This document shows positions 36,001 through 42,000 of a stretch of 52,370 nt of DNA, piece by piece. Origin of the DNA: Simkaniaceae bacterium (GTDB lineage Bacteria > Chlamydiota > Chlamydiia > Chlamydiales > Simkaniaceae). Where the stretch lies: contig JBFWSA010000014.1 in the NCBI GenBank assembly GCA_050248615.1, forward strand, positions 1 through 52,370. Direction: 5' to 3'. A program made the position numbers. The first letter of the stretch is position 1. Every line of letters begins with the position of its first letter.

Positions 36001-39000
36001 GCTTTTCTTAGAATACTTAGAAGGGAAAGGGGTGGCGATTGATCTATCACACACGTCAGATGCCTTAGCTCATGATATCCTTAATTATATTGATAAAAAG
36101 GGACTTCACCTTATCCCGATTGCGAGTCACTCGAATTTTCGCTCGATTAAAGATATCCCGCGCAATCTCCCCAATACTTTGGCCCAAGAAATCATTAAAC
36201 GGGGAGGGATGATAGGGATTAATTTTGTGAGGCGTTTTGTGGGGGAAGGCTCCCAAGATTTTTTAGATCATATCCATCATGGGTTAGCCTTGGGGGGAGA
36301 GGATGCGCTGTGTTTAGGGTCCGATTTTTATGGAGGGATTGATATTCCCTTCTCTCTTCTTCCGGAACGCTCTTTGCCGGTCTTTCAGGAGGACTATTCC
36401 AATGCTAGCTGTTATCCTCGGTTTTTGGAGCTGTTACGCTCTGTTTTTCCCGAAAGGGTGGTTCAAAAAATTTCTTACGAAAATGCGCATAAACATATCA
36501 CAGCAAATATCTCACTATAAGTCTATTAAATTAAAATAAATCGCTTCTATTCTATTCAACAATAGGCTATAATTTCCCCCAAATCGGGATATTGGGGTAA
36601 AAATGATGAAAATTCATGAGGTGACTTCTCACGAAACAGTCTTAGTGCCTTGCGCTTTTATGGTACTGGCCTATTTTGCAGGATCTAAGCGGTGTATTGA
36701 GCTCTTTAGTACTGCTAATACAAATGGGTTGCTTCTATCGGGAGGACTCGCTGCTCTTGCCTATTTGGGAGAAGAGGCGATCGAAAAAAGTCCTCTGGAA
36801 CAGTTTCCAAAGCTGGTGAGAAAGTGCATTTTGATGGGTGCAACGATAGGTTTAGCCCCTCTTATCAGTGAGCTTTCTGGGGAGGTGATCTCTTTGGGCT
36901 TTTCAGCTTCCTTAAAAATGGGAGCTCTTCAGATCGGGACAGCTTTACTCATTAACCAGCTTGCTCTTTTACTCCCTTCAGAGGCTGTTGCTTTTGAATT
37001 TGATGGATCTGTGAAAATAGATCAAGTAGAGGAAGAGCTAAGAGCCATTGAAAAAAGTTCAAAAGCCACATGGCAGATAAAAGATAGTGTCATCCATTTT
37101 GATGTGGATGAGATTCTCGAGGTTCTCTCAGAAGATGACGTGATTGGAGATGGATCTTACAAAAGGCTGTATCATTTAGAAGCTTATGAAGTTCTTAGTA
37201 AACGTGAGCGCAGGCAGTTGGAAGCCAATATCGCGAAGTATGCAAATCCGGATGAATTAGGAAAGCAAGAGCGTGAAGTGCGCAGATATACCCAGAAAAT
37301 TTTTGGGTATTTATTACAAAAGCAAGCGGCTTGGATAACTGAGCGGGATCTTACCGAAAAAAGTAGAAAGCTCGAGGAAGTGCGCGATCTGATTCAACGG
37401 ACCGTCACAAGCTATAACGATGCTCATAATGACTGCGTCGATCAAGTCCTTTCACAAGTTGAAAATCTAGCGATTCTGGTTGTTGATGATTTTGGCTTCT
37501 CTGAAATCGAAAAACGAGTGGCTCTAAGAATCATCAGCTACCGGACGAATTTGATTAAAGAGGTGGTTGCGAAAACAGGTGAGCATCATGCTGCGGACTT
37601 AGAAAGAGCCCTTTCCATAGAGTTACATCAGATGTTAAAACTCCCTCTCCCCAAGTGTGTCCGTGTGGGCGCGGCTTTTAACCAAATCTTTGATGAGGGT
37701 AACTATCAGCAAGCGCGAGCAGCATTTTTGAGACAGTATGATCCCTTTACCTATGTGGTAAACGCTTTGAATTACCACACAGAGCGCCACTTATTTACTC
37801 ATCTGTGCCAATGGTATCAGGAAGCTGTTTTTGCAAACCTAGATGCATCTAGACAAACGGCTTTGGAAAGGCAGTTAGGAGCAGATTTTCTTACGACCTT
37901 CGAGCGCACCGATGCCTCCGTTATTTATTATTTTCTTAAGAATGGAATCATACAAAAAAAGGGATAAATGATGTCAACTTACCAGGAATTTTCCATTAAA
38001 CCTTATTTATTCACTTCAGCGATTTGTTTGGCGCATTATTTTTGTATTGAGGGGAATATACTCAAACAACTTCAAAAATTGGATTTTCGGCTGCGCCAAA
38101 GCACCGTAATTTGCCGATCTTAAATGACCTCATATTTCTAATATTAGATCATTTAAGATCGACGAATTCCGAAAGCTTTCGCGGTAGCCCAAAACCAACT
38201 TTTGAAGTTGTTTGAGTATAAAACCTTAGCAAAAATCAATCAGCTTTCTTATCCTGGAGCCTTTTTATCTGTTGTTGTTGCTGACAAACTTGAATTTGAA
38301 ACCTCAAAATTTTTGAAACAAGCAGGCATGATCAGATGGCTGGTATAGCTAATGGCATGAGAAAGTTCACTATTGGGATACTCACTTTTCTCCCTCTACT
38401 GACATACCTTGAGAGTTGCTATTTTTTAGCCAATACGCCCAAGATCGGGGCTTTAGCTGCTTCTATCCTAGCAGGTGTGGGAATAGGGGCTGTGAATTAT
38501 CACCACTATCAAGAACTCTTTAACTCTTGAGTAGGTTATTCTTCTGGTCGCATGATGGGGAAGTAAACTACATCGCGGATCGAAAAGGCATTGGTGAATA
38601 GCATCGTCAGGCGATCAATCCCAATGCCGAGTCCCCCTGTTGGGGGCATCCCTTGACAGATGGCTTCGATAAATTCTTCATCCATGGGACTCGCTTCTAG
38701 ATCTCCACCCTCCCGCTTTTTATTTTGCTCTTCGAGAAGTTCTCTTTGAAGTTCGGGATCATTCAGCTCTGAATAGGCATTACAGAATTCATATCCTAAG
38801 ATAAAGGTTTCAAAGCGCTCAACAAGGCGTTCTTTGCGGAGTTTAGGATCGCGGTGGAGTTTGCATAGGGGAGTGGTTTCGATGGGGTGATCGATGATGT
38901 GATGGGGCTGAATGAGATGGTGTTCGGCAAACTCTTCGAAAAGAAAGGCGATAAGTTTTCCGCGGCTTGCGGCACCGAGGACATCAGGCTCGATTTTCCC

Positions 39001-42000
39001 TTCCAATTTGCGGCGCATATCTCCATCGGATAAAGTGTCTGGATCGAAACCTCCATAAGCTTGGGTGGCCTCTTTCATGGTCATCCGCTTCCAGGGAGTT
39101 TTCAGGTCGATGAGATGGGTATTCCCTTGTTTATCTTGCCGCATGCCGATTTCTGTTGTCCCATAGAGCTCCTTAGCAAGGTAAGCAAAGAGGTTCTCTG
39201 TAAAGACCATCACATCGTTATAATCCCAGTAGGCTGCATACGATTCTAACATGGTAAATTCGGGATTATGGGTCCGATCGATCCCTTCATTGCGGTAGAC
39301 CTTTCCGATTTCAAAAACGCGCGACAGCCCTCCCACGATGAGTTTTTTTAGAGAAATTTCAATGGCAATCCGAAGGTACATTTTTTGACTGAGGGCGTTG
39401 AGCTCGGAAATGAAAGGGCGGGCTTCAGCCCCGCCATAGATGTTTTGTAAAACAGGGGTTTCCACTTCCATGTAGCCAGCCTCTTCATAATAACGGCGGA
39501 TTTTGGAGACGAGGAGGCTACGCGTTTTGAGACGCTCAACCGATTCAGGGTTGGTAATCAGATCGAGCCATCTTTTCCGGTAACGGGTTCCTTTATCGGT
39601 AAGCCCGCTATGTTTATCGGGTAAGGGGAGGAGCGTTTTACAAAGCAGGGAGACTTCCTTAACATAGAGGGTGAGTTCTCCCTTTTGGGTACGGAAGAGA
39701 TGTCCTTCTATGCCAATGATATCCCCTAAATCGAGTTTTTTTTCGATGAATTTTAGAGGGGATTCGTCTTTGGGTAGACCCGTTACTTGGGTGTGATCGC
39801 GGTTAAACATGACCTGCAGACGTCCCGTTTCATCTTGGATATGGGCGAAAGCGTTTTTCCCCATAGCGCGAAAAAGAACCATCCGGCCGGCAATCCGCGC
39901 AAAATCGGTTTTTCCTACTTCCGCTTCTTCACTTGTGCCAATGGCACTCCCTTCAAATTTATCTTGAAGGGCACGTATCTGATGGGTGGGTTCATATTTA
40001 TGAGGATACGGATCCATTCCCATTTCCCGGATCTCTTTGAGCTTTTGTTTACGGGTTTTAAACGATTCATGGTGGTGGTAGTCAGGCTCAGGAATTTCGA
40101 CTTCAAAGGTGCGGTTACTTAACTTTGACTCTTCGGAAACGTGGGGAATTTCTGGATCGAGGTAGTAAAGCTCAGCTTCTCCTCCACAGTATTTACGAAT
40201 CAGCTCAGAGAGCTCTTTCAAAGCTTTGACGATTTCTGCAGGACGGGTGTTTTCCAGGCCTTCAATGACGAGAGAAATGTTTTGACTCTCTGCGGTGATT
40301 TTTGTTTTGTCACTTTCGCGCCAGTTCCATGCTTTACAAAGGACTTCTACATCATCTCGATAGATGATTTCTCCCACTTTTGCGGTCTCTTGCTCTCGCG
40401 ATCCCAAAGTGACAAAAGGTTCGGTTCCCTGGGCAACCGCTAAACGAATAGATCCTTTGACTTGATCCAAGTCATCGGCTCCAGCGGGGAGGCTATATTT
40501 CACAGAGATCAGATTATAAAGATTGACTACGGGATTGATGTTGGGGAGTCCCTTATCTTGAATCACGCGGCGTAAGAGTGCTTCTACGGAACACCGATAG
40601 GAGGCCGGCTTGTACCCAAACGCTTTATAAGCCTCTCTCCAGTCGAGAATTTTGGGGATCTGTCCGAGATCTTTCCCTTCATACTCTTTCTTCACCCGGA
40701 GGAGGGTACTATCTACGAGTTTCTGGATTTCGGAGTGTTCCCCTGTATTTTTCACCCCTTTAACAATCACAACTCCCACTTTTAAGTGGGGATACTTTTC
40801 CAAAACGCTGGGTTCAATATAAAAATGCATTCCAATTCCGCTAGAGTTTTTCTAAGCCATCATACCAGGGGGGAAAATATTTGAGAATGGGAACTTCAGC
40901 TATGTATAGCTAAAGTTGTTTAAAATTGGAATGATTTATGCGGATCTTTCCGTTGTCCTTCGACTTCTTAAAATCCCTCCTTGTCTCATGGACAATGGTT
41001 TCGATTTTAAGAAGCCAAAATCCAACAAAAATACCTGCCTAAATCAAGCTATATACACAAACGAGTATAAGTTTATCTGGGGGAAGACTTTCTTTCTAAC
41101 GGATTACTAGCGAGGAGAAGAGGGATGAGACTGAGATCTCCTGGATAAACACTCTAAGCAATTTATATTTAAATATTAAGATATTTTTACCTTGTATTTT
41201 AGCCAAAAGTTGGTTGTTAATCAGACATTGAACCTATCCCACTAATCCATTTAAGGGGATTTTTTTAGATTTTTCTTGAAGATTTTTTTCCTTCATTTTC
41301 AGGACATTGTCCAAGAAACAAGGCCTCAAAATGCAGGGAAAAATCAGCAGAAAAGGCAAAAAATACTGGAAATGGATTAATGGGATAGGTTCTTCATTCA
41401 AATAACTTTAGTACAGCGGTTCATATGAGCGGATATTTTAGGAAAATGTAGATAAGGGGTCGATGTCGATGAGGAGGCGGATATTCCGGGGGAGAGGTGT
41501 GGTGTTTTGGACCTCTTTGAGGAGTTGGGAGAAGAGGAGAGGATCTTTTCCTTTGATGAGGAGTTTGAAGCGGAAGTTGTCTTTGATTTTGGCATAGCCA
41601 GAGGGGATGGCAGGGTAGATGTGGAAGGTTTGGGGGAGCTTTTTGAGGAGGATGTGGTGAAAAGTTTGGGCAGCTTTTAGGGTTTGGTCTGCGTTTTTCC
41701 CGGTAAAGGTTAGTTTGGCAAGACGGGAGAAAGGGGGAAATTCAAAGAGCTTGCGATTTTCCATTTCCTCTTCAAAAAAAGAGAGGTAGTCTTCTTGGGA
41801 TGCATATTTGAAGATGGGGTGGTCTTTAAGACAGGTTTGAATGATCACTTCCCCTTTGAGATCGCCACGACCGGAGCGACCCGAGACTTGGGTGATGAGT
41901 TGAAAGACGTTTTCAGAGGAGCGAAAATCGGGAAGATTGAGGGCTCCATCTGAGTTGAGAACACCGACGAGGGTGACGGCGGGAAAGTGGAGCCCTTTAG

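What a model noticed while it worked through the whole genome (the two positions that open the first line are those of the whole stretch)
38536..40830. Lysyl-tRNA synthetase fused to a CtdA-like (B3/B4) aminoacyl-tRNA deacylase domain
The only LysRS of this genome (g00870, 764 aa) carries a ~245-aa N-terminal extension that is a full CtdA-type B3/B4 domain, the fold of the free-standing canavanyl-tRNA(Arg) deacylase and of the PheRS editing domain; the fusion is kept in at least 63 chlamydial protein clusters. I propose that this is a cis-acting post-transfer editing domain of a class II LysRS that clears tRNA(Lys) mischarged with a lysine analogue met inside the eukaryotic host. LysRS is not known to have any editing domain and CtdA-family proteins are described only as stand-alone enzymes; the same module also turns up fused to ArgRS, to both classes of LysRS at either end, and to Tyr/Trp-type synthetases in metagenomic [...]
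Evidence so far: Pfam table: B3_4 (E 1.4e-28, model 2-174 of 174) at residues 64-216, then tRNA_anti-codon 312-396 and tRNA-synt_2 413-760; residues 248-761 are 56% identical to C. trachomatis LysRS (526 aa, no extension). phmmer of residues 1-245 vs PDB: CtdA 9f7e E 1.1e-34, B3/4 protein 9mkl E 1e-28, no other hit. AF2 model (34-sequence alignment A1): N-domain pLDDT ~85-92; Foldseek: 9f7e_A TM(target) 0.87, rmsd 2.6 A over 227 columns, 30% id. Residues shown important in S. enterica CtdA (N105, G116, C166; PMC12449066, passages read) align to identical residues (LYN, PAG, C in 'VLCKAWNWRE'); Q173 of that enzyme is Glu here, but Glu is also the commonest residue in related stand-alone proteins (WNWRE in 32 [...]
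(Added by a program. Inside this text positions count along the whole contig: contig position 1 is position 1 of the stretch shown here. "Call 12" and the like, gene names such as g00115 and contig names such as C1 are that model's own, and its searches are not shown. The text may have been shortened before it was handed on; [...] marks where a part breaks off. The agent that wrote the report below was given it as the finding of a first reader that could run no searches.)

Follow-up and report, generated by a model that had tools for sequence, protein, structure and literature searches.

The report
LysRS with built-in CtdA-like tRNA deacylase
The only lysine-charging enzyme of this environmental chlamydia carries at its front a well-preserved copy of a recently discovered tRNA "eraser" enzyme, which suggests an untested proofreading step that lysine enzymes are not known to have.

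Summary
Window 38536-40830 (-) is one 764-aa ORF. Residues 1-225 are a complete CtdA-type B3/B4 module, followed by a short linker and a full class II LysRS, the genome's only LysRS. The module keeps CtdA's catalytic residues in 59 of 63 chlamydial rows and is under purifying selection (dN/dS about 0.08).

New here:
- Chlamydiae hold two architectures, with the module N-terminal (70 clusters) or C-terminal (12). Each forms its own clade beside stand-alone chlamydial, Babeliales and Amoebophilaceae proteins.
- Across the family the module joined LysRS of both classes, at either end, about nine times. It joined ArgRS about as often.
- The guanidinium-binding Glu of CtdA is kept in 23 of 24 ArgRS-fused modules but is Asp here. 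This Asp predates the fusion.
- The module was lost about a dozen times. Only 16 of 34 genomes of the same family have it, so it is accessory.

My reading is a tethered aminoacyl-tRNA deacylase that clears tRNA-Lys mischarged with a cationic look-alike. The substrate and the cis/trans mode are untested.

I found no paper that mentions such fusions. This scan has already noted the same module on LysRS, ArgRS, TyrRS, MetRS and TrpRS in other genomes.

The parts
38536..40830 (-). Whole gene: CtdA-like module + linker + class II LysRS, 764 aa plus stop
40156..40830 (-). Residues 1-225: CtdA-type B3/B4 module (Pfam B3_4 covers 40183-40641)
40513..40518 (-). Y105-N106, equivalents of CtdA Y104/N105 (catalytic; mutation abolishes CtdA activity according to PMC12268091 and PMC12449066)
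40471..40482 (-). G117-A118-D119-D120, equivalent of CtdA G116-G117-E118-N119; D119 replaces the guanidinium-binding Glu
40315..40338 (-). C165 to E172 (CKAWNWRE), equivalents of CtdA C166 ... Q173
40261..40269 (-). V188-I189-E190, equivalents of CtdA I189 and E191 (second acidic residue at the pocket bottom)
40069..40155 (-). Residues 226-254: linker, not conserved; the only dip in AF2 confidence between the domains is the block 241-250 (pLDDT 76)
38539..40068 (-). Residues 255-764: class II lysyl-tRNA synthetase core (OB anticodon-binding domain 39643-39897; catalytic domain 38551-39594)
40859..40887 (-). Promoter-like site (TTCTCA-17-TATGAT with TG) 29-57 nt upstream of the ATG; the number of such sites in the region is not above chance

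Best explanation
The gene makes one polypeptide. A catalytically competent CtdA-family aminoacyl-tRNA deacylase is tethered by a short linker to the cell's only lysyl-tRNA synthetase. I read it as a tethered proofreading module. LysRS occasionally loads tRNA-Lys with a long, positively charged amino acid that is not lysine. The module, held next to the product, takes the 3' end into its acidic-bottomed pocket (D119, E190) and hydrolyses the ester with the Y105/N106 site.

Shown here: the fold, the conserved catalytic and pocket residues, purifying selection, and the repeated independent fusion to LysRS.

Inferred: the activity itself, tRNA-Lys as the carrier, and the amino acid removed. Within this reading my split is about 45% a non-protein lysine analogue such as thialysine or oxalysine (named from recall), about 35% arginine, ornithine or another natural basic amino acid on tRNA-Lys, and the rest unknown.

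The same module lineage works at either end of LysRS and with both LysRS classes. I therefore think proximity (a high local concentration) matters more than a fixed editing-site geometry. The module is accessory, kept where the pressure exists and lost elsewhere.
For: Fold and family. Catalytic set kept: Y105 62, N106 62, S109 63, G117 61 and E190 62 of 63 chlamydial rows; all seven checked residues in 59 of 63. Purifying selection: module dN/dS 0.064-0.193 in 13 unsaturated pairs; the median over 27 pairs is 0.078 against 0.043 for the core.

Link to LysRS. In chlamydiae 70 clusters have the module N-terminal and 12 have it C-terminal. Each set is one clade (SH-aLRT 96 and 97), and the C set is nested among stand-alone proteins. 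On a 184-row module tree the LysRS-fused label needs 9 changes. The four architectures (class I or II, N or C) cannot be one event. Of the 80 closest loci to the Asp-type module in species genomes, 12 are fusions and all 12 are LysRS. Two further loci have class I lysS directly upstream on the same strand (L092, L093).

The pocket varies with the partner. The position of CtdA E118 is Glu in 23 of 24 ArgRS-fused modules. It is Asp in 56 of 63 chlamydial rows, Asp in the archaeal class I fusions, and Asp, Glu, Gly, Gln or Tyr across the LysRS fusions. TyrRS-fused modules lack Y104 in 4 of 4 and have Asp for E191 in 4 of 4.

The genome's ArgRS is plain (598-aa open frame) and there is no other CtdA-like gene. 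CtdA's pocket also accommodates Arg, and CtdA hydrolyses Arg-tRNA weakly at micromolar enzyme (PMC12449066, sections 26 and 27). Tethering could therefore make a weak activity effective. According to the review PMC7373986 (passages), class II LysRS has only pre-transfer (cyclisation) editing.
Against: There is no biochemical result for any fused form. The module is dispensable: 16 of 34 same-family genomes have it; four have a plain lysS and no module anywhere, one of them a closed genome whose core is 85% identical to this one; the core tree needs 13 changes between N-fused and plain. The Asp variant and the loss of R168 predate the fusion, since the stand-alone sisters P0065, P0069, P0077 and P0080 have them, so they are not adaptations to LysRS. 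Glu-type modules are also fused to class II LysRS (P0091, P0095, P0116). One Asp-type stand-alone gene sits directly behind ArgRS (L059). No LysRS-core column tracks fused versus plain in 10 sister pairs. Shortening Glu to Asp would deepen the pocket, which is not what a shorter lysine-like side chain would call for. In the N-terminal form only about 10 residues look flexible, and the module hangs on the anticodon-binding end of LysRS, so reach to the acceptor end is unproven.
Confidence: 0.55

Rival explanations
1. The module is still an ordinary CtdA. It removes canavanine, or another arginine analogue, from tRNA-Arg in trans. Fusion to LysRS only secures co-expression with an abundant housekeeping enzyme.
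For: The closest characterised proteins are canavanyl-tRNA-Arg deacylases. Y, N, G, C and the second Glu are kept. Glu at the Q173 position is tolerated in the active C. perfringens CtdA (PMC12449066 section 27). The most frequent fusion partner in the family is ArgRS (23 of the 46 long or odd proteins scanned). One Asp-type stand-alone gene lies directly behind ArgRS (L059).
Against: In this lineage the module joined LysRS twice, at opposite ends, and never ArgRS, although the genome has a plain ArgRS. All 12 fusions among the 80 closest loci are LysRS. CtdA's E118, whose E118Q mutant is inactive (PMC12268091 section 8), is Asp here, while 23 of 24 ArgRS-fused modules keep Glu. W187, R167 and R168 of CtdA are also changed.
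Confidence: 0.15
2. The module no longer edits. It serves as an extra tRNA-binding or tRNA-handing domain that improves charging of tRNA-Lys, as the appended tRNA-binding domains of other synthetases do.
For: CtdA-like modules are appended to many synthetases: ArgRS, LysRS and TyrRS here; MetRS and TrpRS in earlier notes of this scan. The basic surface residues R87, R88, R171 and K177 are kept. The module works at either end of LysRS. It is dispensable.
Against: Residues that line the buried pocket and the hydrolytic site, which a mere RNA-binding role would not need, are nearly invariant: Y105 62, N106 62, S109 63, D120 62, Y157 63, W168 63 and E190 62 of 63. One entrance arginine (R168) is in fact lost. 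Lineages where these residues decay look like steps towards loss: P0016, P0018, P0030 and P0062 and P0238.
Confidence: 0.12
3. The module acts on something other than aminoacyl-tRNA. Possibilities are a free or adenylated basic amino acid, or deacylation of Lys-tRNA-Lys itself as a regulatory step.
For: Stand-alone relatives often sit beside amino-acid-metabolising PLP enzymes: a group II decarboxylase in 12 related loci, PALP plus cyclodeaminase in 2, and an aminotransferase in 2.
Against: Every characterised member of the fold (CtdA, PheRS B3/B4) hydrolyses aminoacyl-tRNA (PMC12449066, PMC12268091). According to PMC12268091 section 8, CtdA showed no measurable binding of the free amino acids. 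The neighbour families all scored below NCBIfam cut-offs. Futile hydrolysis of the correct product would be costly.
Confidence: 0.05

Closest known systems
CtdA, canavanyl-tRNA(Arg) deacylase (PDB 9f7e from P. canavaninivorans, 9mkl from S. enterica; PMC10018355, PMC12268091, PMC12449066)
   Same: The whole fold matches, including the CtdA-specific helices (TM 0.85-0.87 over 226-228 columns). Sequence identity is 29-30%. Y104, N105, S108, G116, C166 and E191 are conserved.
   Different: It is fused to a synthetase, whereas the three papers describe only stand-alone proteins (none holds 'fus...', 'LysRS' or 'lysyl'). E118 is Asp, W187 is Ser/Ala, R168 is Ala, Q173 is Glu. The partner is LysRS, not ArgRS. 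The substrate is unknown. More than 150 library representatives, many of them ArgRS and LysRS fusions, score above the 123 bits of the best solved CtdA.
B3/B4 editing domain of the PheRS beta subunit
   Same: Same Pfam family (B3_4) and same fold. N105 is the shared Asn. It is a post-transfer editing domain built into a synthetase.
   Different: The relation is distant (E 0.027 by sequence; TM(query) 0.54-0.59). The indels and pocket residues differ (PMC12449066 sections 24 and 25). PheRS B3/B4 is rigidly packed inside a heterotetramer and removes Tyr or m-Tyr. This genome has its own pheT.
Editing domains of other class II synthetases (ThrRS N2, AlaRS, ProRS INS) and their free-standing relatives (AlaX, ProXp, YbaK, ThrRS-ed)
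   Same: The same logic applies: one hydrolytic fold exists both as an appended cis domain and as a trans factor (PMC10018355 introduction; PMC7373986).
   Different: The folds are unrelated. LysRS is not among the synthetases with a known post-transfer domain. According to PMC7373986, Ser/Thr mischarged by LysRS is cleared in trans by ProXp-ST1/2.
LysRS with other appended domains: LysX (MprF-LysRS, NCBIfam NF002821) and the 777-residue LysRS chains 4up7/4up8
   Same: A class II LysRS core carries an extra domain. LysX matched the core below its cut-off (487 against 742 bits). 4up7 matched.
   Different: Those extensions are a lipid-lysinylation domain and, from recall and not checked here, an EMAPII-like tRNA-binding domain of Entamoeba LysRS. 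Neither is a deacylase fold.

Membership tests
Class II lysyl-tRNA synthetase (LysS) | Full-length match to the curated equivalog model above its cut-off | tested here: met
   TIGR00499 560.7 bits against cut-off 427.6; NF001756 630.3 against 468; residues 255-763
Class II lysyl-tRNA synthetase (LysS) | OB-fold anticodon-binding domain followed by a class II (D/K/N) catalytic domain | tested here: met
   PF01336 at 312-396 and PF00152 at 413-760. The closest solved chains are LysRS 6nrz and 6o3f at 626 bits.
Class II lysyl-tRNA synthetase (LysS) | It serves as the cell's lysine-charging enzyme (no second LysRS) | tested here: met
   One match over the cut-off; no class I LysRS; genome 96.3% complete
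CtdA family (CtdA-1 clade) | B3/B4 fold with the CtdA-type inserted helices | tested here: met
   Foldseek 9f7e_A TM(target) 0.85 and 9mkl 0.87 over 226-228 of 227-231 residues, using a model of pLDDT 96.4
CtdA family (CtdA-1 clade) | Catalytic Y104 and N105 | tested here: met
   Y105 and N106 here; each present in 62 of 63 chlamydial rows
CtdA family (CtdA-1 clade) | Strictly conserved C166, the clade-1 marker according to PMC12449066 section 29 | tested here: met
   C165 here; Cys in 55 of 63 rows, Ser 5, Thr 2, Tyr 1
CtdA family (CtdA-1 clade) | Two glutamates, E118 and E191, at the pocket bottom that bind the guanidinium group (E118Q and E191V are inactive) | tested here: not met
   E191 is kept (E190), but E118 is Asp (D119). 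Among the 63 chlamydial rows the position is Asp 56, Asn 4, Glu 1.
CtdA family (CtdA-1 clade) | Free-standing protein of about 230 aa | tested here: not met
   It is the N-terminal domain of a 764-aa protein. Stand-alone sisters exist (P0065, 234 aa, Anoxychlamydiales).
CtdA family (CtdA-1 clade) | Specific hydrolysis of canavanyl-tRNA(Arg) | not testable with these tools
   Needs deacylation assays
PheRS beta B3/B4 editing domain | Part of PheT, flanked by the B1/B2 and B5 domains | tested here: not met
   The only other domains are those of LysRS. pheT is a separate gene on contig C11. TIGR00472 scores 30.2 bits against a cut-off of 402.65.

The most novel reading that the evidence does not exclude
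CtdA-like modules are a portable proofreading cassette whose pocket is matched to its partner: Glu-type with ArgRS, Asp-type and other types with LysRS, a remodelled pocket with TyrRS. The Asp-type lineage shared by protist endosymbionts (Chlamydiae, Babeliales, Amoebophilaceae) is a genuine lysine-branch editor. It gives class II LysRS a post-transfer editing step against a host-derived lysine antimetabolite. It is gained by fusion at either end and shed when the host does not make the compound.
Probability: 0.22. Interest if true: 0.85.

Novelty: new variant of a known kind. Interest (0 to 1): 0.7.

Why it matters
LysRS and ArgRS are textbook examples of synthetases without a post-transfer editing domain. 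CtdA, discovered in 2023, is described only as a free-standing canavanine-specific enzyme. A conserved, selected CtdA-type domain that has repeatedly been welded onto both unrelated classes of LysRS would show three things. Lysine charging can need proofreading. The CtdA family has specificities beyond canavanine. Editing modules can be swapped onto synthetases as accessories according to ecology. The roughly dozen natural losses among close relatives offer ready-made comparisons. The Asp/Glu pocket difference gives a concrete specificity hypothesis that can be tested with standard aminoacylation and deacylation assays.

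Tried and rejected
(1) Complex prediction of the LysRS core (A4) with the module (A1, residues 1-228) gave no verdict, score 0.00 in two runs. 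This is not evidence either way.

(2) I looked for LysRS-core residues that track the module's presence. No column changed consistently in 10 fused/plain sister pairs, and the strongest frequency contrasts lie at the N-terminal junction and in variable loops.

(3) I looked for remnants of the module upstream of the plain lysS genes of four same-family genomes. tblastn found nothing better than E 1.8.

(4) I first read the PALP + ornithine-cyclodeaminase genes beside stand-alone chlamydial paralogues as an SbnA/SbnB-type diaminopropionate synthase. I rejected this. NCBIfam places them nearest EutB/threonine dehydratase and EutC/cyclodeaminase, all below cut-offs, and SbnB scores 104 bits against a cut-off of 327.

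(5) The group II PLP decarboxylase next to 12 Aminicenantes-type loci matched DABA decarboxylase best, at 172 bits against a cut-off of 900. I assign no function, and the 12 loci are related, so they are not independent.

(6) I tested 'Asp at 119 is an adaptation to LysRS' and rejected it, because stand-alone sisters have Asp too.

(7) RNA-library contigs (runs X15, X16) lie on both the module and the core parts. They are short contigs and may be DNA carry-over, so I make no claim of transcription or of a single mRNA.

(8) The promoter-like site upstream of the ATG is one of a number of sites no greater than chance (3 found, 5.2 expected).

(9) Lookups of this scan's earlier notes by place and by sequence returned nothing.

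(10) P0224, a 519-aa copy of the core with M in place of I246, may be an echo of my own reference. This is not resolved.

Full report
**What is there**

Window 38536-40830 (-) is a single 764-aa ORF with an ATG start. Pfam finds B3_4 at residues 64-216 (E 6.3e-28, the whole model), an OB anticodon-binding domain at 312-396 and a class II D/K/N catalytic domain at 413-760. NCBIfam's LysRS equivalog TIGR00499 scores 560.7 bits against a cut-off of 427.6 over residues 255-763. In the 96.3%-complete genome (2.04 Mb, 69 contigs) this is the only match above the class II LysRS cut-off. No class I LysRS is found. The only other B3_4 domain is in pheT, and the ArgRS is of ordinary size (598-aa open frame). 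The neighbours are housekeeping genes: cysS, an M19 dipeptidase, priA, ftsY and sucCD. Contigs from two other studies bridge the module/core junction, so the fusion is not an assembly artefact.

**The N-terminal module**

- By sequence, residues 1-245 hit only the two solved CtdA proteins strongly (9f7e E 1.1e-34, 9mkl E 1e-28). PheRS beta follows at E 0.027.
- An AF2 model on 102 sequences has pLDDT 96.4 and pTM 0.92. Foldseek puts 9f7e and 9mkl first (TM(target) 0.85-0.87, rmsd 2.6-2.7 A, 29-30% identity) and PheRS beta chains next.
- I mapped the experimentally probed residues through the alignments, using PMC12449066 sections 24-27 and PMC12268091 section 8 (read). Y104/N105, S108, G116, C166 and E191 are identical here (Y105, N106, S109, G117, C165, E190). 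Q173 is Glu, which is tolerated in the active C. perfringens enzyme.
- Four CtdA residues differ. E118, one of the two glutamates proposed to hold the guanidinium group and inactive as E118Q, is Asp119. W187 is Ser, I189 is Val and R168 is Ala.
- The full-length AF2 model on 146 sequences has pLDDT 91.0 and pTM 0.72. The only dip between the domains is at residues 241-250, so the flexible tether is short.

**Is the module functional?**

- I compared 63 chlamydial rows: the query, its own cluster and 61 others. Y105 is kept in 62, N106 in 62, S109 in 63, G117 in 61, D120 in 62, Y157 in 63, W168 in 63, R171 in 63 and E190 in 62. 59 of 63 keep all seven residues I checked.
- The four exceptions (P0016, P0018, P0030, P0062) and a LysRS with a visibly decayed module (P0238) look like lineages on the way to loss.
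- I computed Nei-Gojobori dN/dS on 12 fused genes from relatives' genomes. It is 0.064-0.193 for the module and 0.022-0.060 for the core in the 13 pairs with unsaturated dS. The medians over 27 pairs are 0.078 and 0.043.
- The module evolves about twice as fast as the core but is clearly under selection.

**Distribution in chlamydiae**

- In a sample of 400 genomes of the phylum, 56 have a match at E <= 1e-10. In 33 the match lies in an open frame of 684-818 aa. Two more frames are cut by contig ends. Two genomes have close stand-alone copies. Nineteen have distant (26-36% identity) stand-alone relatives.
- In the window's own family, 16 of 34 other genomes have the module.
- Four same-family genomes without it have a plain lysS in an open frame of 517-538 aa. 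One of them is a closed genome whose core is 85% identical to this one. They have no module elsewhere and no remnant upstream.
- On a tree of 127 LysRS cores (67 N-fused, 12 C-fused, 46 plain, 2 odd), N-fused versus plain needs 13 changes. On the module tree all 69 N-fused modules form one clade (SH-aLRT 96).
- The simplest reading is one old fusion followed by about a dozen losses. Exchange of lysS between lineages could account for some of them.

**Two architectures**

Of the 82 fused chlamydial clusters I retrieved, 70 have the module in front of LysRS and 12 have it behind. The latter come from Parachlamydiales and Rhabdochlamydiaceae records. The 12 C-terminal modules form their own clade (SH-aLRT 97). 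That clade is nested among stand-alone proteins of Anoxychlamydiales (P0065), Rhabdochlamydiaceae, a record labelled Verrucomicrobiae and an Amoebophilaceae MAG. Next to them lies a Babeliales group that contains three stand-alone genes and one further N-terminal LysRS fusion (L044). So within one well-supported clade (99 on the 184-row tree), made up largely of protist endosymbionts, the module joined class II LysRS three separate times.

**The wider family**

- A search of 1.84 billion representatives gave 3594 hits at E <= 1e-3. I scanned 46 long or odd proteins among the best 150. The result was ArgRS 23, class II LysRS 4 (plus the chlamydial representative), class I LysRS 3, TyrRS-type 4, an amidase 1, a GNAT 1, and 10 with B3_4 alone.
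- Among the 80 loci closest to an Asp-type stand-alone query in species genomes, 12 are fusions and all 12 are LysRS: 8 chlamydial, 1 Babeliales and 3 archaeal class I.
- On the 184-row tree the LysRS-fused label needs 9 changes and the ArgRS-fused label 11.
- Two stand-alone genes lie directly behind class I lysS (L092, L093) and one directly behind argS (L059).
- The family is thus drawn mainly to the two synthetases for long basic amino acids.

**Pocket against partner**

- The position of CtdA E118 is Glu in 23 of 24 ArgRS-fused modules.
- In the nine LysRS-fused groups it is Asp in four (the chlamydial N-terminal and C-terminal groups, the archaeal class I C-terminal group and P0087), Glu or Gln in three, Gly in one and Tyr in one.
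- TyrRS-fused modules have lost Y104 (4 of 4) and have Asp for E191 (4 of 4).
- The pocket therefore varies with the partner, which fits partner-specific editing. The rule is not clean, and the Asp variant is older than the chlamydial fusions because the stand-alone sisters P0065, P0069, P0077 and P0080 have it.
- No LysRS-core residue tracks the module's presence.

**Interpretation**

The best-supported reading is a catalytically active aminoacyl-tRNA deacylase tethered to LysRS. It would remove a cationic wrong amino acid from tRNA-Lys.
- Shown: the fold, the active-site conservation, the selection and the repeated coupling to LysRS.
- Inferred: the activity, the carrier tRNA and the amino acid.

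Because the same module lineage works at either end of LysRS and with both classes, I favour proximity over a fixed cis geometry.

The accessory pattern (many losses, relatives in other protist endosymbionts) fits a pressure met only in some hosts or habitats. Near-identical DNA occurs in landfill, freshwater, activated-sludge and wastewater metagenomes. None of this identifies the compound. Thialysine and oxalysine are candidates named from recall. Arg or ornithine on tRNA-Lys are equally open, since according to PMC12449066 CtdA's pocket also takes Arg.

The rivals are a trans-acting canavanine enzyme, a non-catalytic tRNA-binding domain, and a non-tRNA substrate. They are weighed in their own sections.

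**Novelty**

- The three CtdA papers do not contain 'fus...', 'LysRS' or 'lysyl' in their main text. I did not see their supplements.
- Full-text searches for 'B3 4 domain' with 'lysyl-tRNA synthetase' and for 'B3 B4 domain' with 'LysRS' found no paper. 'canavanyl-tRNA' with 'fused' found two papers, whose listed titles and abstract openings concern other topics (listing only).
- According to the review PMC7373986 (passages), LysRS has only pre-transfer editing, plus trans editing by ProXp-ST.
- Public records call these proteins simply lysine--tRNA ligase.
- This scan has already noted the same module on class I LysRS, ArgRS, TyrRS, MetRS and TrpRS in other genomes. The kind is therefore not new to the scan.
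- What this window adds is the chlamydial class II case, the two architectures, the loss pattern and the pocket-partner comparison.

Noticed in passing
window 40895-41005 (also 17495-17664 and 9595-9671): A dispersed repeat of about 100 nt lies in the intergenic region upstream of the gene. It has 55 matches in the genome, often as adjacent inverted halves. In the two DNA runs laid, the region shows very high contig depth and many loose ends. It looks MITE- or REP-like.
   Followed up: partly
P0238 (707 aa): A close LysRS relative whose N-terminal module has decayed. It has lost about 50 residues, reads LCN in place of LYN, has no Pfam B3_4 on record, and scores only 1.6e-9 by phmmer. It looks like a loss in progress.
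   Followed up: partly
P0066 (1124 aa): An ArgRS with two tandem CtdA-like modules in front, at residues 1-229 and 269-500.
   Followed up: no
P0113 (427 aa), P0126 (424 aa): The module is also fused to an amidase-family domain (P0113) and to a GNAT acetyltransferase (P0126).
   Followed up: no
L030:454-3076, L035:4072-6672, L026:4422-6837 (= L040): Stand-alone chlamydial paralogues sit in operon-like order behind PLP and cyclodeaminase genes (EutB/EutC-like), or behind a YheO-type regulator plus an aminotransferase that is nearest to GntC/VioD. All of these score below NCBIfam cut-offs.
   Followed up: partly
L062, L063, L075-L077, L079, L081, L082, L085, L094, L104, L108: In 12 related loci (Aminicenantes and records labelled Eubacteriales) the stand-alone module follows a group II PLP decarboxylase. 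DUF2961 and M16 peptidase genes lie nearby.
   Followed up: partly
L043, L046, L054, L057, L096 (and L026:8220-8678): NUDIX hydrolase genes recur next to stand-alone modules in unrelated taxa: Babeliaceae, Woesearchaeota, Parcubacteria and Methanosarcinales.
   Followed up: no
L092:2921-5228, L093:4361-6666: A class I lysS lies directly upstream of a stand-alone module on the same strand. In L092 the two frames overlap by about 50 nt. The two contigs are much alike but are labelled Chloroflexi and Thaumarchaeota.
   Followed up: no
L028:3-428, L035:6760-7665: F-box proteins (eukaryote-like) are encoded beside the stand-alone modules in chlamydia-like contigs.
   Followed up: no
window 40093-40095; P0224: The protein search listed a 519-aa entry equal to the LysRS core with M in place of I246 (an ATT codon), recorded as 'on 3 contigs, longest 172,719'. 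It is either a real alternative gene call or an echo of my own reference.
   Followed up: partly
window 34663-35562 (+), 36603-37967 (+), 43615-44331 (-): Three ORFs of 299, 454 and 238 aa near the gene have no Pfam family at E <= 1e-5.
   Followed up: no
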